A stretch of 19,015 nt of DNA from Oligoflexales bacterium (lineage in GTDB: Bacteria > Bdellovibrionota_B > Oligoflexia > Oligoflexales > Bog-1112), in contig JBGCEP010000084.1 in the NCBI GenBank assembly GCA_045106415.1, forward strand, positions 1 to 19,015. The letters are read 5' to 3'. The notes beneath the pieces were generated by a model that saw only the letters and a program-made list of their open reading frames with translations, was not told where the DNA came from and made no database searches. Of this stretch, positions 5,198 through 19,015 are shown in pieces. How positions within the stretch are numbered: the stretch's first letter is position 1; each line of letters opens with the position of its first letter. Both the position numbers and the translations under genes were made by a program.

Positions 5198-5710
5198 GTG
5201 TTGCGTTTATACTATCTACTACTTATTCTCATCGCCGTTTCTTGCGGCAAAGATAACAAATCCAGAGATGGCAGCGGTGAAGCTGATGCAAATCCAAAAA
5301 AGAAATCTGGATCTCATATTGTTGTAACAGAGCGAGGTGTTGAAGTCTTTGACGACGAAAAAGAACAAAGCAGCAGCAACAGCAAGAAAGATGAAGACGA
5401 TGATCAAGAAAAAGATGAAGACGATGATAAAGAAAAAGACGGCAATACTGAAGCTAGTGCATGCCAAACGTTCTTTTTAGACAACTTAGCTGAAGACCCT
5501 ATTGGTGGTGCTTGTGCAGCTTGTCATGCAAGTGGGATGGGTGGTTTCACTCTTGAAAGCGGTGAAGATGACGCCAACTTCGCAGCACTTGAAGATCTTG
5601 GATTTAAATTCTTTACAACATGGATTTCTGAAGACGGTGATGCAACACACAAAGGGTTTGCTGACGATTACAACCAATCTTTTGCTGATCTCGAAGAAGC
5701 TTGCCAATAA
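5198..5710 (+). CDS. Acidic monoheme c-type cytochrome lipoprotein
   Basis: RBS AGGAG before GTG, lipobox AVS-C, a D/E/K low-complexity linker and a single CAACH. A candidate distal His lies in ATHKG. Two extra Cys (ASACQ, terminal EEACQ) could form a disulfide. Confidence 0.75.
   Translation: MLRLYYLLLILIAVSCGKDNKSRDGSGEADANPKKKSGSHIVVTERGVEVFDDEKEQSSSNSKKDEDDDQEKDEDDDKEKDGNTEASACQTFFLDNLAEDPIGGACAACHASGMGGFTLESGEDDANFAALEDLGFKFFTTWISEDGDATHKGFADDYNQSFADLEEACQ
5387..5439 (+). repeat. In-frame 24-bp tandem duplication encoding KDEDDD(Q/K)E
   Basis: AAAGATGAAGACGATGATCAAGAA (5387-5410) and AAAGATGAAGACGATGATAAAGAA (5411-5434) differ by one mismatch, followed by a partial third copy AAAGA. 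Confidence 0.9.
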
Positions 5711-5735: not shown

Positions 5736-5771
5736 AGGAGCGGATGTCTAAAGGCATTCGCTCTTTTATTT
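5736..5771 (+). terminator. Rho-independent terminator between the convergent cytochrome genes
   Basis: Stem GAGCGGATGTC-TAAA-GGCATTCGCTC (two G:U pairs favour the + strand) followed by TTTTATTT. An A-tract at 5726-5733 may allow weaker use on the - strand. Confidence 0.75.
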
Positions 5772-8234
5772 AAAAGAAAAAGTATTGTGGCACTGGACAC
5801 AGTTTTGAAAAGCAGGGCTTGAGTGATTAGGGCTTGTCACAGCCTGTCCTTCTTGGAAATGGCACGTTGAACACTTCATAGGCAGTGACTTATAAATCCC
5901 AGCATTATGACAACTCGAACATGGTAGAAGCCTATGCTTTCCTACAAGAGAAAAACGGGTATGCACATCATGCTGAAATTTCGTAGAAGACCACATTGTT
6001 TGCATATGGCAATCAGCACACTGAGGTAAACTTCCTTGGTGATGGTCATCTTCAAAGTGACAGGTCTGGCACTGCTCTCCAGTGCCTGCAAGCACTCTTC
6101 CACCAGCATGGCAACTCTCACATGAAACTTGTAAATGTACTCCTTTTAATTGAAAGTTTTTATGGAACCCATCCACTCCTTTCCATGATCTTTCATTATG
6201 ACAACTTTGACATTTTTTACCTCGAGTTCCTTTGTGAGGATCTTTATGGCAACTCACACATTTGCTAAAAAACTTTTCGCCTAGAATGTATTGTCTTTTA
6301 TGGCGATAAGGTTTCGTTCTAAACTTTTTCTTTGTTGGTTTATGACACTGTATACAGTCAACATCTTTATGCTTTCCTTTTAGAGGAAAACGTGTTGATT
6401 GATGCTTGAAAGGTTTTCTTTTTGAAAAATTAGATGTTGTGTGACACTCAACACAAGGCTGGGTCGAAAACTTTTTACTAAACATATCTTTATGCTGGTT
6501 TCTATGACAATTTTCACAATATTCTTTTTTATGCCATTTAAATTTGAATTTCCTTGCTCTTCTGGGTGGCTTTGAATCTAAAATCCATTTCGTCACAGAA
6601 TGACATTCATGACACCGATGTCCTATCCTGCGATGTTTTCCTGTAATTTTAAAATCTGTTTTAGAATGATTAAACCTTTTTAAATTTTTAAAACTTTGAG
6701 TCGTATGGCAAGTACTGCAGGCCTCATTTTTTAATTTATGAAATTGTTGTTTATGAATATTTTTATGGCAGCTAATACAGAAATCTTTTTTGGCAGAAGG
6801 AAATTTATAAATTCTTTGTTTACCGCGGATATGACAAGATTGACAATTCATTGATTTATGTTTTCCTGTTAATGGAAAACGCGTATTATTATGGAAATTT
6901 TTCCCTTTAAATGATGATCTGTCAGCAGCTATATTTTTCCAACTTTTTGTATTATGACAACTTTCACACTTAGCTCCTTTGAATTTTTTATGGAAACTTT
7001 TCGAATGTGATGATTTGTGACATGTTTCACAACTTTTATGTCGCATCTCTGGAAATTTATATCGCCTTAAAGAAGATTTTTTAGCGAATTTTTTCCCTCC
7101 ATGCACTGTGACATGGCAAGATATACACTTTTTATTTTTATGCATCCCTGTCAGAGGGTAAGAAGTTTGCACATTATGATTAAAACGCAATCTATTTTTC
7201 CAGCCAATCTCATTATGGCAACTTTGACACTTTGTTAAAGATCCCATTTTTGGATGGGATTTTTTTCCAAACCCATGATAATCAGCATGACAAGAAACAC
7301 ATTGATTCGATTGTCCCGACCAATGCTTTTTAAGATCTTTGCTTTTGACATGACAAGACTTACAAGAAGATATTTTATGCTTACCTTTTAAAACAAAGTC
7401 TGTCACCTTATGGTCAAACCTTAGTATTTTCCATTTTATTTCATTATGGCAAGTATGACATTTTCCATTTCTAAATTTTATACTAAGTCCTTTTCCATGA
7501 AAATCATCATGACAACTACGGCATTGTTTCATTGCCAATTGTGGCCATTTATAAGTTGTGTTTCCACTTTTATTTTCATGACATTTTTTACACTCAAGTT
7601 TAGAATGAGAACCATTCAAACTAAATCCGCTCACTATTTTATGGTCAAATTTTGTATGCTTCCATGACGAAATTTGATGACAACTTTTACAATCTTCTTT
7701 TGCATACTTCCCTTTAAACTTATGAACATCATCGTTTTTATGACAATCAATGCAACGATCACTCTGCCCGAAGTATCTTGGGTCTGATTTTCTGGTCAAT
7801 TTTGTTGTTCTTTTTTGTTTATGACATTCTAGGCAAGCGACACGACTATGTCCTCCACCAAGAATATATCCTGTCAAATTATGATCAAAAGATCTCTGGT
7901 TCACCAGAGCGCTATTAAATTGCCGCCCTTTATGATCACTATGACAAGTTGCGCATTTTTTTTGAGCTCTTCCGTGGAAATGTTGCCTCGAATTCACATG
8001 CTTTCCAATATCATCATGACACGATAAACACTTACTATCAGGCAACCCGCCACCTGCCTCATGACAACTCAAACAATCTTTATGCTCTAAATCATGATGA
8101 CCTAGCATAAGAGGTCCTGGTGCTAAGAGCTGGTTTAAAAGCCCTTCAAATCTGCTTTTTTTCTGATCGACCACCGACTGAGAAAAAAGACTCTGAGCAC
8201 AAATCATAAGTGTCATAAAAACAACAAAGCGCAT
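5766..8234 (-). CDS. Exported 30-heme c-type cytochrome (ten tri-heme repeats)
   Basis: Sec-type signal MRFVVFMTLMICAQSLFS and 30 CxxCH motifs counted by hand. The repeating unit is FxH..FxLxGxH..CxxCH..CxxCH-x2-4-H..CxxCH..W/F. The protein is Lys/Arg rich. Its start overlaps the upstream stop (TAATG), with RBS GGAGG. Confidence 0.95.
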   Translation of the reverse strand: MRFVVFMTLMICAQSLFSQSVVDQKKSRFEGLLNQLLAPGPLMLGHHDLEHKDCLSCHEAGGGLPDSKCLSCHDDIGKHVNSRQHFHGRAQKKCATCHSDHKGRQFNSALVNQRSFDHNLTGYILGGGHSRVACLECHKQKRTTKLTRKSDPRYFGQSDRCIDCHKNDDVHKFKGKYAKEDCKSCHQISSWKHTKFDHKIVSGFSLNGSHSKLECKKCHENKSGNTTYKWPQLAMKQCRSCHDDFHGKGLSIKFRNGKCHTCHNEIKWKILRFDHKVTDFVLKGKHKISSCKSCHVKSKDLKKHWSGQSNQCVSCHADYHGFGKKSHPKMGSLTKCQSCHNEIGWKNRLRFNHNVQTSYPLTGMHKNKKCISCHVTVHGGKKFAKKSSLRRYKFPEMRHKSCETCHKSSHSKSFHKKFKGAKCESCHNTKSWKNIAADRSSFKGKNFHNNTRFPLTGKHKSMNCQSCHIRGKQRIYKFPSAKKDFCISCHKNIHKQQFHKLKNEACSTCHTTQSFKNLKRFNHSKTDFKITGKHRRIGHRCHECHSVTKWILDSKPPRRARKFKFKWHKKEYCENCHRNQHKDMFSKKFSTQPCVECHTTSNFSKRKPFKHQSTRFPLKGKHKDVDCIQCHKPTKKKFRTKPYRHKRQYILGEKFFSKCVSCHKDPHKGTRGKKCQSCHNERSWKGVDGFHKNFQLKGVHLQVSCESCHAGGRVLAGTGEQCQTCHFEDDHHQGSLPQCADCHMQTMWSSTKFQHDVHTRFSLVGKHRLLPCSSCHNAGIYKSLPMKCSTCHFQEGQAVTSPNHSSPAFQNCVQCHNTFSFK

Positions 8235-9646
8235 TATGAAGCACCTCCTTCAAAAAGAGGTGGATTCCGAGGGATGGGTGCTGTCCGCGCTGGACCAAAA
8301 ACTCGACTCAACGTGAATAAAAACCCATTTCTATGCCGCCCTGGAGTTTGACTACGAACATGATCAGCTCGTACGAGATATTCTTTATAGAATGTCACTT
8401 CTGAGCCAATTCGCGTTTCTCGCCGAGGCATTGTTGTTATCGAAGATCCAGGATAAAAACGATAGTCAGCATATAGATTTGCATACCTGCTATAATAACG
8501 GATACTACTTCTATATAAAAGAGAACTCCCCTCTGAGTCTTTTTTCTGACCAATTGCAAATCGAGTTGATAAGCCATGAACCCCAAGGTCTCGCACCCAT
8601 GGCCCAAGTGTAATTTCTTGGCTACCAGCTACAGACTCACTCGACGTTGTTTGCTCAAGCGATAACTGAACACTTAGTTTTTTTGAATACTTATATTGAG
8701 TATCAAAGTAAGCCATCGATCGAGCCTTAACATTTGCTCCATAAATTTCATCCCGTTCTAGTATAGATTGCTCAATATCACTGACTAATTGATAGCTTGT
8801 TGTGTTCGAATATGACCATAAAAAAAAGTTTGACCATTTTCCTAAGGTCCTAGAATATCCAAAACGCCCCTGTCTGATTCGCGCAGAGGGTGAAAGTTCA
8901 ACTTTAATATGCGAAGTTAAACGATGCCCTGTCCACGGAACCCAAATCCCAGTCTGAACACCAAGCATTTGAGAAGACTCAACAATAGGGTCAGGGTGAG
9001 ACGTAATCAAAATGCCACCTGTACCGTAGGCATAATAACCAGATGGTGATTTATCTTCATATTCTATATACCCACCACCTTGAAGGTCAGAACGAGATTC
9101 TCGGCGCAGCTGGCTTTTCGAATTTGTAAAATCAGAAACAATACCGATAAAGCTCTCAATTTTTATCTTCTTGCTCCATCTCATTCCTGTCATAAAACCA
9201 TCATGTCCTTGAACACCCATGGCTTTAATTGGAAAGCGTCCAATAACAGCCCCATATTTATATCGCCCTGTAGGCCTATGCCACGCAAGGTGGTGAGCTT
9301 GTATTTTAGACGAGGGGCTCAAAGTAGCACCATCTGCAACTTCACCATATGCATCATATAAATAACGGACATGAGACTTAAAATAACTCTTACCCACAAG
9401 GGTTTTCATTTCTAAAAGTCCAGAAGCATATTTCTGACTATTCGGCACACCTTGAAGACTCGAACCATCTTCAAAACCTGAGCTCCCCTGAACAATAGAC
9501 TCCCCATAATGAGTCTGTACACGTCCTGAAGTGGATACAGCAAAACCATCTGATCCAAGCAGCAGTAGTAAGACAGATGCCCATAAAGACCATCTACACA
9601 AAAATAGAGCGTTGTACGCCAAAACAACCCATTCCAATGAAAACAC
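8234..9646 (-). CDS. Probable outer-membrane beta-barrel (porin of a porin-cytochrome complex)
   Basis: A signal-like segment ends ...LLLLLGSDGFA. The remainder lacks TM helices and has many alternating polar/aromatic strands (e.g. AYFDTQYKYSKKLSVQLSLEQ, YANLYADYRFY, GFLFTLSRVFG). It sits between two multiheme genes. The true start is uncertain. Confidence 0.65.
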   Translation of the reverse strand: MFSLEWVVLAYNALFLCRWSLWASVLLLLLGSDGFAVSTSGRVQTHYGESIVQGSSGFEDGSSLQGVPNSQKYASGLLEMKTLVGKSYFKSHVRYLYDAYGEVADGATLSPSSKIQAHHLAWHRPTGRYKYGAVIGRFPIKAMGVQGHDGFMTGMRWSKKIKIESFIGIVSDFTNSKSQLRRESRSDLQGGGYIEYEDKSPSGYYAYGTGGILITSHPDPIVESSQMLGVQTGIWVPWTGHRLTSHIKVELSPSARIRQGRFGYSRTLGKWSNFFLWSYSNTTSYQLVSDIEQSILERDEIYGANVKARSMAYFDTQYKYSKKLSVQLSLEQTTSSESVAGSQEITLGPWVRDLGVHGLSTRFAIGQKKDSEGSSLLYRSSIRYYSRYANLYADYRFYPGSSITTMPRRETRIGSEVTFYKEYLVRADHVRSQTPGRHRNGFLFTLSRVFGPARTAPIPRNPPLFEGGAS

Positions 9647-9707: not shown

Positions 9708-10109
9708 TTAAAGAAAATTAGGAGGAGACCAGGCAGGATATGCATGACAGCTCAGACAATCTCCATCAGCCGTATGACTTTCACGATCAGGCCTATCTAA
9801 TCCATGACAACCTAAACACGGTTCTCTTTCATCGTCTACGATATGTTTATGACTTAGAGGATCCCATTTATTGTCTACTTCATATTTATGGCACTCTGAA
9901 CACTCTCGCCCAAAACCATGCTTCACATCGTTAGCACTCGCAAGTCTTTCGTGCTCATGACACTCCGAACAATCCAAAGTAAATTTTTCATGATCGATAG
10001 AAGGGCTTTGAAAATTTTGATCCGTTACTTGTGGGCCTGCATCATTACGACAGTTCCAAAGGTTTAAGCACATAAACACAATAAATAACCTAGAAAAATT
10101 AAGATGCAT
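9708..10109 (-). CDS. Tetraheme c-type cytochrome lipoprotein
   Basis: The likely start is ATG 10109 (MHLNFSR...) with RBS GGAGAGG, overlapping the upstream stop; the ORF track starts at 10124. Lipobox-like LWN-C. CSECH, CSECH, CLGCH and CLSCH are arranged as two di-heme repeats, each ending in Trp. Confidence 0.9.
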   Translation of the reverse strand: MHLNFSRLFIVFMCLNLWNCRNDAGPQVTDQNFQSPSIDHEKFTLDCSECHEHERLASANDVKHGFGRECSECHKYEVDNKWDPLSHKHIVDDEREPCLGCHGLDRPDRESHTADGDCLSCHAYPAWSPPNFL

Positions 10110-11439
10110 CAGGCGCCTCTCCATGTTTCACATCAATTTTAATTCCAAGGTCTTTCAAAAATTTAAACGGAAGTTCAGCACCTGCAAAAACAAATAAATA
10201 ATGATTCTCTATCGTTCTTTTTTCATCTTGACTCACAATGGTAATTGTTTCTTTCTCAATAGAGTCAACAGATGTATTGTAGTGAACTTTCACTCTTCTT
10301 TTTTCAACATATGTCATTAAAATTGCTTTATTTTCTTCATTGCACCGATCTAAAAGATCTCCACGAACCAGAAGACGAACTTTATTCTTAAGGTGAACGT
10401 CCCCTAGTCTTTGAGCAGCTTCAACAGCAGCATTACCACCACCAACAATAGAAATATGACAGTTCTGGTACTGTTCTGGTTCTAATAAGTTATAAGTCAC
10501 TTTCGGCAGATCTTCATTGGGGAGACCAAGCTTTCTAGGGGTTCCTCTGACCCCCATAGCAAGAATAACTTTCCGTGCTCGTATCATTTTTTGAGATGTT
10601 TCAACCTCAAAAATATCTCCATCAGATGCCAAGTTAACAAACCTATGATTTTCATCAACATTCAACCGCAGCTTCCCCCGAAGACCGGTCCACAATTCCA
10701 TAAGTTCTTCTTTTGTTACTTTATTTTGACGAAATTTATAAGACCCTACAATCGGAAGTTCCAGAGGATACGACATCACAAGCTTCTGCCTCGGAAAATT
10801 TGCAATCGATCCCCCAAACTGGCCCTGTTCTAAACATAAATGAGAAACTTTTTTCTCCTTGCATGCCAAAGCAGCTGTGAGACCAGCAGGGCCCGAGCCA
10901 ACAATCAAAACATCAACATCTGCTATAAGAGATGAGTCCAAATTTTCAATGGCATGATAGGCAGCAAGCCGGCCTTGTTTTGTCGCATTACGAATCAACC
11001 CCATGCCACCTAACTCGCCAGCAATATAAAGCCCTTGAACATTGGTTTCATAGTTTTTATTAACCCTAGGAAGCTCCATACCTCGAGTCTTAGTTCCAAA
11101 CACCAATGTGATCGCACCAAAAGGACAAGCAGCTTCACACTCACCATGCCCTACACAAGCGGTTGGTGAGACCAATCGAGCCCGATCACCGACGAGCTTT
11201 AAAATTTGCCCTTCAGGGCACGCCCGAAGACAAGCCCCACACCCTGCACATAAAGCTGGATCAATCACAGGGTGTAAGGATTGAGGCTCAGATCTCTTCT
11301 CTTCAACAGCCTTTTTCCAAGCTGCCAAACCTTCTTTATTTTGTCTTTCTCTTCTTGAAGACATAAACCATGCCACAAAGACAAAAAATAAAAAGCCAAT
11401 AATTTGCAAATTTTCCAATAAGAAATAATAAAGCTGCAT
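10099..11439 (-). CDS. Membrane-anchored ferredoxin / FAD-NAD(P)H oxidoreductase (TrxR fold, circularly permuted, no CxxC)
   Basis: N-terminal TM helix; CAGCGACLRACP and CVGHGECEAACP; ETNVQGLYIAGE; DVLIVGSGPAG; ILAMG; IVGGGNAA. RBS GGAGGAG. Confidence 0.9.
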   Translation of the reverse strand: MQLYYFLLENLQIIGFLFFVFVAWFMSSRRERQNKEGLAAWKKAVEEKRSEPQSLHPVIDPALCAGCGACLRACPEGQILKLVGDRARLVSPTACVGHGECEAACPFGAITLVFGTKTRGMELPRVNKNYETNVQGLYIAGELGGMGLIRNATKQGRLAAYHAIENLDSSLIADVDVLIVGSGPAGLTAALACKEKKVSHLCLEQGQFGGSIANFPRQKLVMSYPLELPIVGSYKFRQNKVTKEELMELWTGLRGKLRLNVDENHRFVNLASDGDIFEVETSQKMIRARKVILAMGVRGTPRKLGLPNEDLPKVTYNLLEPEQYQNCHISIVGGGNAAVEAAQRLGDVHLKNKVRLLVRGDLLDRCNEENKAILMTYVEKRRVKVHYNTSVDSIEKETITIVSQDEKRTIENHYLFVFAGAELPFKFLKDLGIKIDVKHGEAPDAS

Positions 11440-11508: not shown

Positions 11509-12384
11509 TTAGTTCGCCTGAAAAATAAAAGACGATGCAATATGAACCGCGACCGTTGTATACATAATCACAGCAAAAGGAGCATGAAAACTATGCCAAT
11601 GTGAAAAAATTTTTCGATAACTTGGTAAACATCGAAGCCTTATGTGAAGAAGACCCCACCTACAAAAAAATTTTCGTAATAATGGGTGGTCATATTTCAA
11701 TGACGGTGACCAAAATAAAAGCTTCCACTCTCCTAAGACTCCCCAAGACAAGATACTCACCTGTCCGACTCCTTTTAACTGCTGAGGATCACGACCTAAG
11801 GCTGTTCGAAATACTTTTCTATAAACATATTTCAAATGCTCAGGAAGAAGCGCTCCTTCGCTTTCATCTGCAAGGCGAGCAATTCTTGTTTCAATTTGCT
11901 TAATTTCTCCTCGTAATGAAGACTCGGCCTGGAGCATGCGGATATACAAAAATCGCCCTATAATTCCACTGATAAAACTACACATCATGGACCAAAAACC
12001 AACAGCAGCAAGTCCTTCGATACTCCCCCCTGTATGGAAGAAAATAAATGTTGAGCCTGTTAAACCAAAGAAGATGTGCCAATTCAGCCAAGCTTTTAAA
12101 TCAACCCCCTGATTACCCGATTGCAAACGCTTTTTTGCTATATAAAAATTTGTACAAACAATAAGAAAAAAACCAATCCAACCAAGGATATAACTAACAG
12201 GCTCACCAGCCTCTAGACTCAAAGCTTTGCCACACTTCTCACCATAAAAAAGGCATACCAGTATGGGCAGTGCCTGCGGCCAAGTAAAATCAAATCCGAT
12301 TGCGACATACTCATAAACAAGCCACAGTGTAATAAGAACCCAACATAGTATTAACGGCCTTAGGTTATTCAAAAAAAACCTCAC
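11509..12384 (-). CDS. Ferric-reductase/NOX-like transmembrane di-heme cytochrome b
   Basis: Multiple TM helices carry two H-x13-H pairs (WHIFFGLTGSTFIFFH and FHAPFAVIMYTTVAVH). A large soluble loop lies between them. The GTG start has a weak RBS. Confidence 0.75.
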   Translation of the reverse strand: MRFFLNNLRPLILCWVLITLWLVYEYVAIGFDFTWPQALPILVCLFYGEKCGKALSLEAGEPVSYILGWIGFFLIVCTNFYIAKKRLQSGNQGVDLKAWLNWHIFFGLTGSTFIFFHTGGSIEGLAAVGFWSMMCSFISGIIGRFLYIRMLQAESSLRGEIKQIETRIARLADESEGALLPEHLKYVYRKVFRTALGRDPQQLKGVGQVSILSWGVLGEWKLLFWSPSLKYDHPLLRKFFCRWGLLHIRLRCLPSYRKIFSHWHSFHAPFAVIMYTTVAVHIASSFIFQAN

Positions 12385-12834: not shown

Positions 12835-13734
12835 ATGATAATGAGAAACATTGCTATTTTTAATATCGACAGTCACGCAAGTGCGTTAGCCATACAAGAT
12901 ATTTTAATCAAACACTGTGATGAAATAAAACTTCTAGTTCTTAGTAAGCCCATTGCAGCACAGAAAAAAAGTTTTTTAAAAGAAGTCTTAAATCACTTAA
13001 AAATTTCAGGTTTATCTTATGTGAATTACCTTACAGCAAATTTCTTAATCCACCCACACATGTGCCGTGCAGCAGAAATACATGGGAAAATTTTCAATAA
13101 AAAACCCCGCATGCGCCACTTAGAGACTCTTTGTACAGAGCTTGGGATTCAGTGCATTCGCACTGATAATGTGAATAGTTTAAAAATACAAACACTTCTC
13201 AAAGAGAAAAATATCGATCTGGTCACTGTTTATTACTTCGATCAAATTTTGAAAAAACGGCTTTTATCTGCCCCTAAAAAAGGCACAATAAACTTTCATG
13301 CAGCTGTCCTCCCTCACTGTAGAGGCCTTCATCCTATTATATGGAGTATCATACAAAATCAACCTTTCGGCCTTTCTGCACACACTATTCCTGATGCTCG
13401 CATTGACGCTGGCCCCATTCTTGCTCAAACTCAAGTCTTAAGTCAGAATGAACGTCATATTCTTTCACTTGAACAACACGTAAACCAAGCTGGTGTCTCT
13501 TTATATAGTGACGTCATTCAAAATTTAGACGTTTTTATGAAAGAAGCTCAAGAGCAAGCTAAAGGATCTTATTTTTCTCACCCAAAGAAGAGTGATCTTC
13601 TTCGACTTAAACGCCAAGGTTTTCAACTTATTCGATGGAGAAGTTGGTTCAAAGGGTATTTCACTCCCTCAATGCCACTCTCCACATACAAAAAAAGAAC
13701 TTCAGGCTTTATGAATTTTGTAAAAAACACATGA
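12835..13734 (+). CDS. Formyltransferase family protein (Formyl_trans_N domain)
   Basis: DLVTVYYFDQIL, GTINFHAAVLPHCRGLHP and IDAGPIL retain the catalytic N, H and D of N10-formyl-THF transferases. The N-terminus is unlike canonical Fmt or PurN. Confidence 0.85.
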   Translation: MIMRNIAIFNIDSHASALAIQDILIKHCDEIKLLVLSKPIAAQKKSFLKEVLNHLKISGLSYVNYLTANFLIHPHMCRAAEIHGKIFNKKPRMRHLETLCTELGIQCIRTDNVNSLKIQTLLKEKNIDLVTVYYFDQILKKRLLSAPKKGTINFHAAVLPHCRGLHPIIWSIIQNQPFGLSAHTIPDARIDAGPILAQTQVLSQNERHILSLEQHVNQAGVSLYSDVIQNLDVFMKEAQEQAKGSYFSHPKKSDLLRLKRQGFQLIRWRSWFKGYFTPSMPLSTYKKRTSGFMNFVKNT

Positions 13735-15934
13735 TTTCACTTCCGTCACCTGCAATAACATGTACAGACATATAAACTCTGCGAATCGGTATAAAAGAAC
13801 CAGATAATCGCAAATTACAGTTTGTAGAAAGTTCCCCACTCACTTTCATCGACGCATCACGTGTTGTGATAATATCACGACTTCTTTTTTTCATTCTTTC
13901 TTCTATTTTCAAGATAATTCGTTTGATTTTATCAAGGAAAGATATCAATTCTTCTTTTCTTTTTTTCTGTTTTAAACCCATTTGTTCTGGTCTTCTCGCT
14001 CTTAAGTCTTTTAAATTTCTTTCAAAAGGTTTTATATACTTATTAAGATATTCAACCCTCTCAGCATCACATATTTGTAGCGAGGTTAAAAAAGGACTCC
14101 CACCCCCATTCAACGTGGTTACTTGTCCAGTCTCTGTACCAATATTTGCACATTTTAATAGATTTCCCCAATGAAGCTCTCCACCTAGAATAGATGATTC
14201 TTTTTTTTCAAAATGAATATTTTTTTCTGCTAAAACATAACTAGATATTAAGCTTTCTCTTACAAAAAGGCTTTCTTGTGTCATTACACGAGAGTTGTCG
14301 GCAAAACCAATTTTCATACGCCCATCAGATCTTACGTAACTATCAGCAAGCACTCCCCCATCAACAGTAAGGTGACCATGGCATAAAATCATGGCTCCTT
14401 CTACTAATCCTGTAATATGAAGATCTCCTGAAACGTGTACCATCATTCCTTTTTCTACGTTCCCTCTGATTTCCACAGGAGACGTACAAAAGAAATGGCC
14501 GGATAAGCTATTAAGATTTCCTTCAAAAATAGTCACTTTCGTGACGGATAAATGAGCCGGTTCTAACTCAATCATTCCATCGTATTGGGCATAGTAGACG
14601 CCATTTCTATATTCAACGCCTTCTCCTAAGTGCATCAGATCTTGATGCTCAGGATATGAGAGATCAATCGGTTGTCCTCTTACATCTTTTCCATTCTCAG
14701 GAGGTGATTGATAAGAAATTCTTCCAATTTCTTCACCTTGGTTTATTTTTAATTTTTTATTCTTATCCTGATGTGACAAATGAAAATATGGAACTTTTCC
14801 TGGTACGGGATCTTTCGCCGTTGCGATAATATGATCTTGAACATAGCTTTCTTCTATCACTATATTTTGAAGAAAAGAAAAACTTCCTTGAGCTGTTGAT
14901 GGATCAATATAACAAACTCGTAAAAAAGCTGACCATTGTTCAATTTTTAGATCTTTTAATTGCTTCCAATCAATATTTTTTTTTGTAGATAAATAAGCCT
15001 CTTGGCTATTTTCACCAATGTATATTTGAAATGAATTTTCTAAAATTTTCTGTGTTGATGTATTAGGTATCTTTTTAGAGTAGCGTGGTAATAATTTTTC
15101 AGGGTCACCAATCATGAGCCCTGACTTTTGATTAAGTGCTGCTAATAATACAACAGGCAAATCCAGGCCAAACCTTTCAGGACCTCGCGTAGCAGATCTG
15201 AGGTTGCGAACTAAATTTGTTGTTAAAAAATTAAAAGAACCACCTATTTTAGAAGATGCTTTTGCCGCAAAATCTCTGGCGTCTTTAATAATATCTTCAA
15301 AATTCTCATCTCCAAGTATAAAGTCCATACGAAAAAGACGAAAAACAACATCTCCTCGACGAGTCAGTTCAAGAGTGTAAATTTTATCTTTAATATTCTT
15401 TTCACTGCCATGAGTTGAATATAAGAGTTCATCATGTATAGCAACACCAGATGATGCTCTATACCACAATCCATAAAGCTGACTCGCACTTGCAACATCC
15501 ATAATATGACGCTGCCTCAGCATGTAACCTACCTTTAGTTTAAAAGTTTTAAAACGCCAACTTGATATTTCTTTTGCTGACGCTGTTAAAGAAATTTTTG
15601 ATATCACACCAAGTTTCAACAACTTTTTATCTAACACTGGTTCAACTTGGATTCCAGGTAATGAAGGGGATCCAGTCGCAACTGTTAAACCCACCTTCTC
15701 ATGCTCTGGAATTTTGCTTTCTCTTAAAATTTTCCATAAACGACAAAGACGAGTTTCAAAAAACCTATAAAACTCTAGATTTCCAAGGTCAACTTCTTTC
15801 TCCAACTTAATAACTGCACGATCCATAAGATCTGAGGGAGGCTGATCTGACTGTGAGCAAATAAACCTGGAAAGTTCAACACGTACTCGATGTTGAGCTG
15901 GAATATAAATCATTTTAATGGATAAATCACTCAT
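13709..15934 (-). CDS. FapA / DUF342 family protein with long N-terminal extension
   Basis: PPENGKDVRGQPI, then beta-helix-like repeats (VEIRGNVEKG, GDLHITGLVEGAMI, GHLTVDGGV, ILGGEL, NIGTETGQVTTL) and a C-terminal coiled coil. The probable start is ATG 15934 with RBS GGAGGGG; the ORF track starts at 15946. Confidence 0.8.
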   Translation of the reverse strand: MSDLSIKMIYIPAQHRVRVELSRFICSQSDQPPSDLMDRAVIKLEKEVDLGNLEFYRFFETRLCRLWKILRESKIPEHEKVGLTVATGSPSLPGIQVEPVLDKKLLKLGVISKISLTASAKEISSWRFKTFKLKVGYMLRQRHIMDVASASQLYGLWYRASSGVAIHDELLYSTHGSEKNIKDKIYTLELTRRGDVVFRLFRMDFILGDENFEDIIKDARDFAAKASSKIGGSFNFLTTNLVRNLRSATRGPERFGLDLPVVLLAALNQKSGLMIGDPEKLLPRYSKKIPNTSTQKILENSFQIYIGENSQEAYLSTKKNIDWKQLKDLKIEQWSAFLRVCYIDPSTAQGSFSFLQNIVIEESYVQDHIIATAKDPVPGKVPYFHLSHQDKNKKLKINQGEEIGRISYQSPPENGKDVRGQPIDLSYPEHQDLMHLGEGVEYRNGVYYAQYDGMIELEPAHLSVTKVTIFEGNLNSLSGHFFCTSPVEIRGNVEKGMMVHVSGDLHITGLVEGAMILCHGHLTVDGGVLADSYVRSDGRMKIGFADNSRVMTQESLFVRESLISSYVLAEKNIHFEKKESSILGGELHWGNLLKCANIGTETGQVTTLNGGGSPFLTSLQICDAERVEYLNKYIKPFERNLKDLRARRPEQMGLKQKKRKEELISFLDKIKRIILKIEERMKKRSRDIITTRDASMKVSGELSTNCNLRLSGSFIPIRRVYMSVHVIAGDGSEIMCFLQNS

Positions 15935-15952
15935 TCTCCCCTCCATGAGGGC

Positions 15953-18385: not shown

Positions 18386-19015
18386 GAGTTACGCCAGAAA
18401 GTTGTGGATTGAAAAAGTATGACGACCTATTCTCGTTGTTAACAAACAACAACAAAGGGCTCGCCAAAGCCCAACAAGAACGAGGTCGTCATGTTAAAGC
18501 TTTTATCAGAATCATCCAGCCAAGAACAAGGTCTTCTTTTCTTATCACTTGATGAGATAGCGCGATCAGGTGCCAGACAGCTTCTGTCAAAGGCTCTCGA
18601 GCTAGAGGTTGAGGAGTATATCACTCGCCACAACGACTCAAAAGACAGCGATGGCAACAGGTTCGTTGTGAGAAATGGAAAAGGCAAAGCTCGCAAAATC
18701 ACAACAGGAGCCGGCACAATCGATGTTCAAGCTCCTCGCATCAATGATAAGAGAGAAGGTTCAAAGTTTACGTCACATATTCTTCCTCCATATCTTAGAA
18801 AATCAAGAAATGTTGAATCGATTCTTCCCTTGTTATACCTCAAGGGCCTTTCTGGAAATGCTTTCCAAGAGTCGCTATGTGGCTTGCTTGGCAGTGATGT
18901 CGGAGGCCTCTCCTCAAGCTCCATATCAGCTCTGAAAAAGAGCTGGAGAGCTGATATGGAGCAATGGAGATCACGTGCTATTGAAGACGATTTTGTTTAT
19001 GTCTGGGCCGATGGG
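18386..19015 (+). mobile_element. Left part of an IS256-family insertion sequence
   Basis: Candidate left IR GAGTTACGCCAGAAAGTTGTGGAT (18386-18409) lies about 100 bp upstream of the transposase. GC content rises abruptly from the AT-rich flank. The exact boundary is inferred. Confidence 0.8.
18491..19015 (+). CDS. IS256-family (Mutator-like) transposase, N-terminal part (truncated by window end)
   Basis: RBS GAGG and ATG 18491: MLKLLSES...LELEVEEY...VVRNG...TTGAGTIDVQAPRIND...FTSHILPPYLRKS...LYLKGLS...FVYVWADG. The frame is open to the window end, and WADG contains the first catalytic Asp. Confidence 0.95.
   Translation, partial: MLKLLSESSSQEQGLLFLSLDEIARSGARQLLSKALELEVEEYITRHNDSKDSDGNRFVVRNGKGKARKITTGAGTIDVQAPRINDKREGSKFTSHILPPYLRKSRNVESILPLLYLKGLSGNAFQESLCGLLGSDVGGLSSSSISALKKSWRADMEQWRSRAIEDDFVYVWADG

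What the first reader, a model, noticed from the sequence alone, without database searches (positions are those of the whole stretch)
5766..8234. 30-heme cytochrome made of ten tri-heme modules with matching distal His: a single-chain modular wire
Seen: 30 CxxCH in 822 aa (about 27 aa per heme) in strict groups of three. Each internal module supplies three extra His (FxH, GxH, and a His 3-5 residues after the middle motif), consistent with bis-His ligation and no catalytic heme. Established: polymers of tri-heme c7-type domains such as Geobacter GSU1996 form elongated wires. Inference: ten modules could span a periplasm or project through the barrel, and module number may vary between species like a molecular ruler. 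It could also act as an electron capacitor.
Basis: partly seen in the sequence, partly recalled or inferred. Interest (0 to 1): 0.7.

Follow-up and report, generated by a model that had tools for sequence, protein, structure and literature searches.

The report
Thirty-heme wire cytochrome, PCC3-type conduit
This gene encodes a real 30-heme cytochrome built from ten three-heme repeats, and it appears to be the long middle wire of a little-studied, never-tested gene set that may carry electrons from the cell interior to an outer-membrane pore.

Summary
The ORF lies on the minus strand (5766-8234) and encodes 822 aa with 30 CxxCH. It has nine canonical tri-heme repeats plus a divergent N-terminal head. 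Exactly 30 further His are conserved, three per module, and no Met is conserved.

The protein is not a Geobacter GSU1996-type c7 polymer: the curated nanowire_3heme model fails, and there is no His-Met heme. It is a long relative of the "periplasmic multiheme cytochrome" of PCC3 porin-cytochrome clusters (He 2017; Hoover 2023), which have been described by computation only.

Four of the five operon genes are homologous to PCC3 parts or PCC3 neighbours:
- a 5-TM protein with two WX3HX13H motifs;
- a membrane-tethered Fe-S/FAD NAD(P)H-type flavoprotein;
- a ~450-aa barrel, remotely homologous to the PCC3 porin;
- the cytochrome itself.

These four co-occur in 30-31 of 33 cytochrome-positive genomes, against 0-1 of 98 others. 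Natural flavoprotein::membrane-protein fusions exist.

Heme number among relatives runs in steps of three (24-39). The steps come from tandem copies of one middle module, while both ends stay constant.

Best reading: a periplasm-spanning wire between an NAD(P)H-linked entry module and the barrel. The Bdellovibrionota version lacks PCC3's extracellular cytochrome. No structure prediction was available. Shape, direction of electron flow and expression are untested.

The parts
5766..8234 (-). 30-heme cytochrome c, 822 aa, with a Sec-type signal peptide (residues 1 to about 20)
   Evidence: ORF and translation. 30 CxxCH. Pfam Cytochrome_C7 at 97.9 bits, plus Cytochrom_c3_2 and Cytochrom_CIII. 30 conserved distal His.
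7941..8147 (-). Module 1, residues 30-98: a divergent N-terminal head carrying the LL..L.APGPL motif; roughly neutral
   Evidence: Only a partial match to the module HMM. The head is shared collinearly with a proteobacterial PCC3-type 21-heme cytochrome. Family mean net charge +0.9.
6198..7940 (-). Modules 2-8, residues 99-679: seven canonical, strongly basic tri-heme modules. Module 7 (6441-6704) is the unit that is duplicated in 33-, 36- and 39-heme relatives.
   Evidence: Module HMM hits. Heme-spacing comparison. Net charge +8 to +20 per module in the query and +5 to +8 as the family mean.
5769..6197 (-). Modules 9-10, residues 680-822: a compact, near-neutral C-terminal tail ending in CH-N-x-F-S-F. 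It is constant in all barrel-linked relatives.
   Evidence: Spacing 30,17,17 | 32-33,16,24-25 is kept in variants of 21 to 39 hemes. N817 and F819 are at least 90% conserved. Mean net charge -2.0 and -0.1.
8234..9646 (-). 470-aa putative outer-membrane beta-barrel. Its TAA stop overlaps the cytochrome's ATG (TAATG), and an AGGAGG lies upstream.
   Evidence: No Pfam or PDB match. Profile homologs lie directly upstream of the cytochrome in 33 of 35 close loci. hhalign to the barrel part of 17 PCC3 porins gives probability 94.9%, E 4.5e-8 over 385 columns. ESM Atlas neighbours include 'Beta-barrel porin 2' and an 845-aa TPR/SPOR cluster at TM 0.68. Overlap sequence.
9708..10124 (-). 138-aa tetraheme cytochrome c, probably a lipoprotein
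   Evidence: 4 CxxCH. Sub-threshold c7/c3 Pfam hits. Relatives of 77-291 aa have a Cys directly after the signal h-region, consistent with a lipoprotein signal, in most of the 11 listed (my reading of the printed N-termini).
10099..11439 (-). 446-aa Fe-S flavoprotein: N-terminal TM helix, two 4Fe-4S-type motifs (the second is CxxHxxCxxxCP), and a TrxR/YpdA-like FAD and NAD(P)H-binding domain
   Evidence: Pfam Fer4 families and Pyr_redox_3 at 1.4e-39. His98 is invariant in 43 of 43 and there is no conserved CxxC. Best PDB relatives are YpdA/Bdr at 2e-47 and TrxR-type ferredoxin-NADP reductases.
11509..12384 (-). 291-aa five-TM membrane protein, a candidate di-heme b cytochrome (the PCC3 'IMP')
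   Evidence: Invariant H103, H117, S139, G140, G143, W263, H267 and H281 in 44 sequences (W99 is conserved in 91% of 53). Five family-averaged hydrophobic segments with the motifs on TM3, TM4 and TM5. This is the same signature He et al. 2017 give for the PCC3/PCC4 IMP.

Best explanation
The gene encodes an all-bis-His, 30-heme c-type cytochrome. It is built from a docking head (module 1), seven basic tri-heme modules and a compact neutral tail (modules 9-10). It is a long member of the family known, from computation only, as the 'periplasmic multiheme cytochrome' of PCC3 porin-cytochrome clusters.

In this Bdellovibrionota-type operon I propose that it is the wire crossing the periplasm. The proposed path is: cytoplasmic NAD(P)H, then FAD, then two Fe-S clusters (446-aa flavoprotein), then two b hemes across the inner membrane (291-aa protein), then the cytochrome's N-terminal head, then about 30 hemes in series, then the C-terminal tail seated in or at the 470-aa outer-membrane barrel.

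No separate extracellular cytochrome is encoded. The tail itself, or the small lipoprotein tetraheme, would therefore be the surface contact. The number of middle modules sets the length between two fixed ends.

Shown: motif content, repeat structure, ligand conservation, homology of four components, their co-occurrence, and the fusions.

Inferred: heme occupancy, extended shape, contacts, location of the ends, and direction of flow. I favour outward flow, at roughly 45%.
For: (1) All 30 hemes have a conserved sixth-ligand candidate and no Met is conserved. At 27 aa per heme the protein is below the roughly 33 of MtrA that He 2017 cite as wire-like.

(2) Homology to PCC3 parts:
- The query is 30% identical (E 8e-66) and collinear from the N-terminal head with the 21-heme cytochrome that follows the IMP gene in Hyphococcus luteus.
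- The IMP is 23% identical, E 2e-11, with the published WX3HX13H x2 + SGXXG signature.
- The barrel matches the PCC3 porin barrel by hhalign at 94.9%.

(3) Gene linkage:
- The barrel gene lies directly upstream, with overlapping stop and start, in 33 of 35 close loci.
- By phmmer, the IMP gene lies within 9 kb in 52 of 71 loci and the flavoprotein gene in 46 of 71.

(4) Phyletic pattern in 131 genomes:
- Cytochrome in 33.
- Barrel in 31, all of them cytochrome-positive.
- IMP in 31, of which 30 are cytochrome-positive.
- Flavoprotein in 30, all cytochrome-positive.
- Genomes with two barrel copies also have two flavoprotein copies and extra cytochrome matches on a second contig.

(5) Seven of the 10 long proteins that match the IMP profile are flavoprotein::IMP fusions. 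They keep the CxxHxxCxxxCP motif and both WX3HX13H motifs.

(6) Both ends are constant and the middle varies in variants of 21 to 39 hemes. Each module is positionally orthologous across 112 proteins.

(7) The genome has CcmE for heme attachment and no other cytochrome with more than 5 hemes, so there is no candidate extracellular partner.
Against: - No 3-D model could be made. The ESM Atlas model of this protein has pTM 0.26, so the extended shape is not shown.
- No RNA or protein evidence exists for this gene.
- The barrel is called from remote homology, ESM Atlas neighbours and a weak strand-alternation signal (28 windows against 20.2 +/- 3.2 in shuffles). Neither its pore size nor whether a heme chain fits inside is known.
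- He et al. proposed that the IMP is quinone-linked and that electrons flow inward from Fe(II). Nothing here excludes quinone reactivity.
- The hosts carry a heme-copper oxidase, so the need for electron export is unclear.
- The 15 other genomes of the window's own family lack the system.
- The role and location of the tetraheme lipoprotein are open.
- The middle modules carry a very high positive charge, which no step of the model explains.
Confidence: 0.55

Rival explanations
1. Inward conduit, which is the published PCC3 hypothesis. The barrel-cytochrome pair takes electrons from an extracellular donor such as Fe(II), Mn(II), a mineral or reduced humics. It passes them through the periplasm to the inner membrane, where the di-heme protein reduces quinone or feeds the oxidase.
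For: This is the model of He et al. 2017 and later Gallionellaceae, Sideroxydans and Leptothrix papers (passages). The components are homologous. The genome has a heme-copper oxidase that could be the sink.
Against: - The strictly co-occurring partner is an NAD(P)H-type Fe-S flavoprotein, and in some organisms it is fused to the membrane protein. Reducing NAD(P)+ from Fe(II)-level donors, with electron entry against the membrane potential, is uphill. This is established bioenergetics and was not tested here.
- No quinone-site signature was found.
- PCC3 function is still called unverified in 2025-2026 papers.
Confidence: 0.2
2. Periplasmic electron store (capacitor), as proposed for Geobacter GSU1996 and GSU2210. 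The 30 hemes buffer electrons in the periplasm and the neighbouring barrel is not a physical partner.
For: High heme number. The capacitor role is the current view for Geobacter single-chain 'nanowires' (PMC10138318 passages) and is mentioned for PCC3. This protein holds 30 of the 47 hemes in the five ORFs with four or more motifs.
Against: - The translationally coupled barrel gene and the perfect barrel-cytochrome co-occurrence are not needed for a free store.
- Constant ends with a variable middle fit a spacer between two docking sites better than a store.
- The protein is not a member of the GSU1996 domain family.
Confidence: 0.12
3. Surface-displayed cytochrome. The barrel exports or anchors the whole, very basic protein on the cell surface, where it coats the anionic outer leaflet as a conductive or reductive layer.
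For: Family-wide net positive charge of +19 to +123. No separate extracellular cytochrome in the genome. Conserved C-terminal N-x-F-S-F.
Against: The N-terminal head is shared with PCC3 periplasmic cytochromes that sit next to the inner-membrane protein gene. No secretion-system gene lies in the operon. No precedent was found in the papers read.
Confidence: 0.08
4. A GSU1996/GSU2210-type polymer of c7 domains.
For: Tri-heme periodicity. Pfam Cytochrome_C7 at 2.9e-28 in 4 stretches. Geobacter GSU2210 has 27 hemes.
Against: TIGR04257 scores at most 14.7 bits against a 40-bit cut-off. There is no His-Met heme. The module profile hits GSU1996 (3ov0) only at 2.4e-4, behind MtrA, MtrF, MtrC and HMC. 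The operon context is different.
Confidence: 0.05

Closest known systems
PCC3 porin-cytochrome cluster and its 'periplasmic MHC'. Sources: He et al. 2017, PMC5566968; Hoover et al. 2023 preprint, PMC9900912. Example: Slit_1446-1449 of Sideroxydans lithotrophicus ES-1, listed in PMC11429942.
   Same: - The cytochrome is homologous, with the same N-terminal head and tri-heme periodicity. Published counts are 21, 24 and 27 hemes; I found 18-27 in proteobacterial loci.
- The inner-membrane protein is homologous and carries two WX3HX13H motifs plus SGXXG.
- The barrel is homologous.
- The same Fe-S flavoprotein gene lies nearby.
- Function is untested in both.
   Different: - No second, extracellular giant cytochrome.
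- The barrel is about 450 aa and lacks the SPOR/TPR N-terminal part of the 680-910-aa PCC3 porins.
- Gene order is IMP, flavoprotein, tetraheme, barrel, cytochrome instead of IMP, periplasmic cytochrome, extracellular cytochrome, porin.
- The cytochrome is longer (27-39 hemes), has loop-expanded basic modules and a distinct C-terminal tail.
- The host is Bdellovibrionota. That phylum is not in He's main text (no occurrence) or its supplements held as text, and no paper pairs PCC3 with Bdellovibrionota.
Geobacter sulfurreducens single-chain 'nanowire' cytochromes GSU1996 (12 hemes) and GSU2210 (27 hemes)
   Same: One polypeptide made of tri-heme repeats with a high heme density. A wire or capacitor role has been proposed.
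   Different: The curated nanowire_3heme model is not met. All hemes here have His-His candidates, whereas each GSU1996 domain has one His-Met heme. The third distal His follows the second motif; from recall, it precedes it in c7. The operon here has a barrel, a di-heme membrane protein and a flavoprotein.
MtrAB/MtoAB/PioAB porin-cytochrome complexes
   Same: Works like: a heme chain sheathed by an outer-membrane barrel. The MtoAB/PioAB type also has no extracellular cytochrome (He 2017 passages). MtrA is the best PDB match of the module profile, at 2.4e-10.
   Different: The DmsE/MtrA family model scores 62 bits against a 192-bit cut-off. There are 30 hemes rather than 10. The barrel has no detectable similarity to any Pfam family. 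The inner-membrane entry is not a CymA/NapC-type quinol dehydrogenase.
NOX / ferric-reductase-domain flavocytochromes
   Same: Works like: NAD(P)H, then flavin, then two b hemes held by two HX13H helices, then the outside. He 2017 already noted the similarity to the ferric-reductase domain. Natural fusions of the flavoprotein and the membrane protein exist.
   Different: Pfam Ferric_reduct scores only E 3.3. The dehydrogenase is TrxR/YpdA-like with an added two-cluster ferredoxin domain, not FNR-like. The acceptor is a 30-heme c-type chain rather than O2 or Fe(III) directly.

Membership tests
PCC3 porin-cytochrome cluster (He et al. 2017) | Conserved inner-membrane protein of about 300 aa with five TM helices, SGXXG on TM4 and WX3HX13H on TM3 and TM5 | tested here: met
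   H103, H117, S139, G140, G143, W263, H267 and H281 are invariant in 44 sequences, and W99 is conserved in 91% of 53. Five hydrophobic segments place the motifs on the third, fourth and fifth. Definition from PMC5566968 passages.
PCC3 porin-cytochrome cluster (He et al. 2017) | Periplasmic multiheme cytochrome with many repeats and a low residue-to-heme ratio, encoded in the cluster | tested here: met
   27 aa per heme. 30% identity, E 8e-66, collinear with the cytochrome that follows the IMP gene in a proteobacterial cluster. Published counts of 21, 24 and 27 hemes are also multiples of three.
PCC3 porin-cytochrome cluster (He et al. 2017) | Outer-membrane beta-barrel porin gene in the cluster | tested here: met
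   hhalign of the barrel family against 17 PCC3 porins gives 94.9% probability, E 4.5e-8 over 385 columns. The barrel fold itself rests on ESM Atlas neighbours and a weak alternation signal.
PCC3 porin-cytochrome cluster (He et al. 2017) | Second, extracellular multiheme cytochrome (median 34 hemes) | tested here: not met
   None in the operon. No other ORF in the 93.8%-complete genome has more than 5 CxxCH.
GSU1996-type c7 polymer (nanowire_3heme, TIGR04257) | Match to the curated tri-heme domain model (cut-off 40 bits) | tested here: not met
   The best matches inside the gene score 14.7, 12.4 and 9.8 bits. The model was also not listed in the NCBIfam scan.
GSU1996-type c7 polymer (nanowire_3heme, TIGR04257) | One His-Met-ligated heme in each tri-heme domain | tested here: not met
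   No Met is conserved beyond the start codon. There are 30 conserved non-motif His for 30 hemes. Feature taken from PMC10138318 passages.
Pfam Cytochrome_C7 (PF14522, 'c7 and related') | Score over the gathering threshold (24.8 bits) | tested here: met
   97.9 bits, E 2.9e-28, in 4 stretches. This is a broad family that also covers many unrelated multiheme proteins.
DmsE/MtrA decaheme family (TIGR03508) | Score over the curated cut-off (192.2 bits) | tested here: not met
   62.4 bits.
Ferric-reductase-domain / NOX superfamily (for the 291-aa partner) | Pfam Ferric_reduct match, with two HX13H pairs on two helices | tested here: inconclusive
   The His pattern is met. Pfam Ferric_reduct gives E 3.3 and Ni_hydr_CYTB E 0.11, both far below threshold. 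The family profile has no PDB hit.
c-type cytochrome (covalent heme at each CxxCH) | Heme actually attached at all 30 sites, with low-spin bis-His spectra | not testable with these tools
   Only the prerequisites were seen: a signal peptide, and CcmE in the genome.

The most novel reading that the evidence does not exclude
A quinone-independent route out of an aerobic cell. NAD(P)H is oxidised by a membrane-tethered Fe-S flavoprotein, and electrons cross the inner membrane on two b hemes. They then run along one 30-heme polypeptide whose constant head and tail dock to the inner-membrane module and to an outer-membrane barrel. The number of middle tri-heme modules (27 to 39 hemes) is tuned to the envelope width of each lineage. 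In Bdellovibrionota, which includes predators, this split-NOX-plus-wire would deliver reducing power to the cell surface, for example for iron reduction, redox balancing or attack chemistry, without an extracellular cytochrome.
Probability: 0.3. Interest if true: 0.75.

Novelty: new variant of a known kind. Interest (0 to 1): 0.5.

Why it matters
PCC3-type clusters are widespread and hold some of the largest cytochromes known. No component has been tested. The published model (quinone-linked, inward, for Fe(II) oxidation) leaves out the flavoprotein.

This locus is a stripped-down version in a different phylum: one wire cytochrome, one small barrel and no extracellular cytochrome. Its ends are constant and its length varies in steps. 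That makes three questions directly testable in a simpler system:
- Does a single polypeptide bridge both membranes?
- Does module number track envelope width?
- Is the conduit fed from NAD(P)H rather than from quinol?

Cultured carriers of related clusters named in the search outputs would allow genetics. They include Pseudobacteriovorax antillogorgiicola, Hyphococcus luteus, Stakelama marina and Rubrivivax sp. A210.

Tried and rejected
Structure and complex prediction
Complex prediction of barrel plus tail was unavailable. No fold search could therefore be run. Shape, length and contacts are untested.
- The ESM Atlas model of the cytochrome has pTM 0.26 and pLDDT 0.65, too poor to argue shape.

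Searches that found nothing useful
- Single-sequence PDB search with the cytochrome: 0 hits.
- Barrel profile against PDB: 0 hits at E up to 10.
- Pfam on 35 barrel members: nothing meaningful.
- Exhaustive representative search with the barrel: only 12 hits at E up to 1e-3.
- IMP word-index search: 2 proteins only. IMP profile against PDB: only chance hits to GPCR chimeras.
- Rfam on the window: 0 matches.
- Notes of this scan near the window or by sequence: nothing.

Expression
- No RNA holder was listed. The two DNA runs that hold the stretch belong to one study, and one of them may be the source of this DNA.

Weak or negative signals
- Promoter and terminator scans gave numbers close to the shuffles and were not used.
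- DNA repeats inside the gene are at most 45 nt at 60-88% identity, so there is no recent duplication.
- GC3 of the operon (0.26-0.33) resembles the flanking genes (0.20-0.43), so there is no compositional sign of recent transfer. The genome-wide part of that script crashed.
- The beta-strand alternation count is only about 2.5 sd above the shuffles, and I do not give a strand number.

Readings rejected
- A catalytic multiheme enzyme: every heme has a conserved His partner and there is no CxxCK.
- A member of the GSU1996 family.
Full report
**Observation.** The ORF at 5766-8234 lies on the minus strand and encodes 822 aa.
- It has 30 CxxCH and no variant motifs. It has 61 Cys, 60 in motifs and one in the signal peptide. 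It has 78 His, 30 in motifs and 48 others.
- Shuffling its own residues 5000 times gives a mean of 0.41 motifs and a maximum of 4.
- Among 9783 ORFs of at least 50 aa in the 2.95-Mb genome, the next-highest count is 5.
- Cutting after every third motif gives ten segments that align at 27-39% identity to the third.
- An HMM trained only on modules 3 and 4 of 40 other proteins finds nine full-length copies, each ending exactly at a third motif. It finds only a partial match in the N-terminal head.
- In an alignment of 51 thirty-heme homologs, exactly 30 of the 48 non-motif His are at least 94% conserved, three per module. The other 18 are below 50%, and no Met beyond the start is conserved.
The strand is minus. 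Spacing alone is not strictly triplet, because within-module gaps of 32 equal the between-module gaps. Module 1 is divergent.

**Relatives and module number.** The word-index search gave 3716 proteins at E up to 1e-3 among 6231 candidates. The best 120 are 34-49% identical to the query, and the few that carry a source name are called Oligoflexus, Pseudobacteriovorax, Bdellovibrio-type, Oligoflexales or generic.
- Their motif counts are 24 (1 protein), 27 (2), 29 (4), 30 (52), 33 (44), 35 (1), 36 (15) and 39 (1). That is 115 of 120 divisible by three.
- The spacing patterns show that the 33-, 36- and 39-heme proteins carry one, two or three extra tandem copies of the unit with gaps 35, 32, 21. 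This unit is module 7 of the query. Modules 1-6 and 8-10 keep their spacing.
- Shorter barrel-linked variants of 21-27 hemes also keep both ends.
- Among the 112 proteins with at least ten modules, each module's best hit in another protein is the module at the same position. The extra modules match positionally as well: x2 to x2 in 53 of 60 and x3 to x3 in 16 of 16.
- A FastTree tree of the constant modules needs 15 changes of module number, at least 10 of them forced by well-supported branches, against 47 expected for shuffled labels.
- Within the gene, DNA repeats are at most 45 nt at 60-88% identity.
- Module number is therefore an old, lineage-linked trait that has changed several times.

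**Not a GSU1996-type c7 polymer.**
- Pfam's broad Cytochrome_C7 family is met at 97.9 bits.
- The curated GSU1996 domain model TIGR04257 reaches only 14.7 bits inside this gene, against a cut-off of 40.
- All NCBIfam cytochrome models are far below their cut-offs.
- A profile of the ten modules finds MtrA (2.4e-10), MtrF, an octaheme protein, MtrC and HMC ahead of GSU1996 (2.4e-4).
- GSU1996 domains each have one His-Met heme, and Geobacter's GSU2210 has 27 hemes (PMC10138318, passages). Single-chain tri-heme polymers of this size are thus not new in themselves, but this protein is a different lineage with all-His ligation.

**Operon.** Five genes run on the minus strand:
- a 291-aa membrane protein (12384-11509);
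- a 446-aa protein with an N-terminal hydrophobic helix, two ferredoxin-type motifs and a Pyr_redox_3 domain (11439-10099);
- a 138-aa tetraheme cytochrome (10124-9708);
- a 470-aa protein with no family (9646-8234);
- the cytochrome itself.

The 470-aa gene's TAA stop overlaps the cytochrome's ATG (TAATG), and an AGGAGG lies upstream.

**The membrane protein.** Among 53 relatives taken from fetched loci, W99, H103, H117, S139, G140, G143, W263, H267 and H281 are invariant or nearly so.
- Family-averaged hydropathy gives five segments, with these motifs on the third, fourth and fifth. A basic loop of about 113 residues precedes the fifth.
- This is exactly the signature that He et al. 2017 describe for the 'conserved inner membrane protein' of their PCC3 and PCC4 clusters. 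They compared it to the ferric-reductase domain and proposed two b hemes (PMC5566968, passages and section 16).
- Pfam itself gives only sub-threshold hints: cytochrome b561 at E 0.11 and Ferric_reduct at E 3.3.

**Link to PCC3.** A scan of one genome per species matched 616 stretches, of which 570 encode relatives. Of these, 71 loci were kept.
- In the proteobacterial loci (Rubrivivax, Aquabacterium, Piscinibacter, Hyphomicrobium, Stakelama, Hyphococcus and others) the order is flavoprotein (divergent), membrane protein, an 18-27-heme cytochrome, an 11-91-heme cytochrome, and a 680-910-aa protein with SPOR and TPR domains.
- That is the published PCC3 order: Slit_1446 IMP, Slit_1447 periplasmic cytochrome, Slit_1448 extracellular cytochrome, Slit_1449 porin (PMC11429942, table passage).
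- The query aligns collinearly from its N-terminal LL..L.APGP head with the 21-heme cytochrome of Hyphococcus luteus (30% identity, E 8e-66).
- The membrane proteins align at 23% identity, E 2e-11.
- Hoover et al. report 21, 24 or 27 hemes for PCC3 periplasmic cytochromes and long, linear AlphaFold2 models (PMC9900912, passages).
- The function of PCC3 is still called unverified (10.1101/2025.02.27.639646; PMC13386937).

**The 470-aa protein.** A single-sequence search finds few relatives.
- A profile built from the first hits finds a homolog in 37 of 71 loci.
- Among the 35 loci whose cytochrome scores at least 400 bits, 33 have it directly upstream with overlapping stop and start. The exceptions are a locus with no upstream sequence and a Nitrospira locus.
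- ESM Atlas neighbours by features (0.98) include a 'Beta-barrel porin 2' cluster. By structure (TM 0.68-0.71) they include an 845-aa TPR/SPOR cluster.
- Profile-profile comparison with 17 PCC3 porins gives 94.9% probability, E 4.5e-8, over 385 columns that cover the C-terminal barrel part of the porins.
- My strand-alternation count is only weakly above the shuffles.
- I read this protein as the barrel domain of the PCC3 porin without its periplasmic SPOR/TPR part.

**Co-occurrence.** In the 131 genomes that the tool treats as the window's phylum:
- The cytochrome is in 33. The 15 other genomes of the window's own family have none.
- The barrel is in 31, all of them cytochrome-positive. The two misses are 83% and 72% complete.
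- The membrane protein is in 31. Of these, 30 are cytochrome-positive and one is a weak partial hit elsewhere.
- The flavoprotein, at E up to 1e-80, is in 30, all cytochrome-positive.
- Genomes with two barrel copies also have two flavoprotein copies and extra cytochrome matches on a second contig.
- These genomes are related to each other, so the counts are not independent.

**The flavoprotein.**
- Its second cluster motif is CxxHxxCxxxCP, with the His invariant in 43 of 43.
- No CxxC disulfide is conserved.
- Its flavin part is nearest to YpdA/Bdr (2e-47) and to TrxR-type ferredoxin-NADP reductases.
- Searching long proteins with the membrane-protein profile gave 10 hits. Seven of them (739-757 aa) are flavoprotein::membrane-protein fusions that keep all these motifs.
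- He et al.'s main text and the eight supplements held as text do not mention a flavoprotein, FAD, Bdellovibrio or Oligoflexia.
- No paper holds both 'PCC3' and 'Bdellovibrionota'. Searches for Oligoflexia or Bdellovibrio together with multiheme terms gave 15 and 4 papers. I opened one of the 15 and two of the 4, and none describes this system.
- Other agents of this scan have noted the same flavoprotein-PCC3 link in other genomes. I reached it independently, and their note on fusions prompted.

**Mechanism.** Shown: the sequence features, homologies, linkage and fusions described above.

Inferred, with the reasoning:
1. The flavoprotein is cytoplasmic. It has no export signal, it binds NAD(P)H, and it has a positive stretch after its helix.
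2. The b hemes carry electrons across the inner membrane.
3. The cytochrome's head docks at that module. The head is the part shared with PCC3 cytochromes, and those cytochromes share only the inner-membrane partner.
4. The compact, near-neutral tail docks in the barrel. The tail is specific to the barrel-linked lineage.
5. Length. GSU1996 spans 12 nm with 12 hemes (title cited). He 2017 quote about 10 nm for MtrA's 10 hemes. Thirty hemes would then span about 24-30 nm. Edwards et al. quote about 20 nm between the membranes.
6. The 9-12 hemes beyond the 18-27 of PCC3 cytochromes could cover the outer membrane in a system that has no extracellular cytochrome. The genome has none.

The direction of flow is open. 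The NAD(P)H-type partner and the membrane potential favour outward flow.

The tetraheme protein looks like a lipoprotein. It could be a periplasmic relay or a surface cap.

The genome has a heme-copper oxidase and CcmE.

**Limits.** I have no structure, no complex model, and no expression or habitat evidence beyond DNA. The barrel assignment rests on remote homology.

**Verdict.** This is a real, well-conserved 30-heme modular cytochrome. I file it as a new variant (Bdellovibrionota-type, without an extracellular cytochrome) of the computationally known, untested PCC3 system. It is not a c7 polymer.

Noticed in passing
window 10099-11439 (-), residues 95-106: The second Fe-S motif of the flavoprotein is CxxHxxCxxxCP, and the His is invariant in 43 of 43 relatives. 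In the first motif the second Cys is Ser in 7 of 43. A His-ligated cluster may be the exit point toward the membrane hemes.
   Followed up: partly
window 5198-5710 (+): A 170-aa ORF convergent on the cytochrome gene. It has a lipoprotein-like N-terminus (…IAVSCG), a long acidic D/E/K linker and a single CAACH heme motif. No homolog was found in any of the 71 related loci.
   Followed up: partly
L008:4155-7612, L017:4048-7607, L045:4027-7631, L010:3384-6774: In Bdellovibrionales-type relatives a ResB-like and CcsA-like (System II cytochrome c biogenesis) gene pair sits between the membrane-protein gene and the barrel gene. Pfam was run only on the L008 pair; the pairs in L010, L017 and L045 are inferred from matching ORF sizes and positions. 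The window's genome has CcmE and no ResB match.
   Followed up: partly
window 8234-9646 (-), C-terminus; alignment A3: The barrel family ends with a conserved strand (GYRFG) followed by a Pro-rich tail of about 15-20 residues (AP.RDGAPP.G.L; in the query, GPARTAPIPRNPPLFEGGAS). This is unusual for outer-membrane proteins, whose last strand is normally C-terminal.
   Followed up: no
window 5766-5790 (-), cytochrome C-terminus: The conserved C-terminal CH-N-x-F-S-F (N817 and F819 at least 90% conserved) is reminiscent of an outer-membrane-protein C-terminal signal, yet it sits on a cytochrome.
   Followed up: no
window 18491-19015 (+): A truncated IS256/Mutator-family transposase gene lies at the contig end. 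In addition, the 15 other genomes of the window's family lack the whole system. This hints at gain by transfer, but the operon's GC3 is like that of its neighbours.
   Followed up: partly
L036:5489-7606, L020:11502-14399, L064:6842-8729: Some relatives carry an additional large lipoprotein-type cytochrome (8-37 hemes) next to the barrel gene. It could be a surface partner. The query has only the 138-aa tetraheme protein.
   Followed up: partly
P0144 (826 aa): A different fusion: Fer4/PF13247 Fe-S domains plus a cyclic-nucleotide-binding domain joined to the same 5-TM HX13H protein. It recalls the Fe-S::IMP arrangement He et al. mention for PCC4.
   Followed up: no
window 13709-15946 (-): A 745-aa FapA-domain protein (flagellar assembly protein A family) lies next to a formyltransferase-like gene. 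It is unrelated to the operon and not conserved beside it.
   Followed up: no
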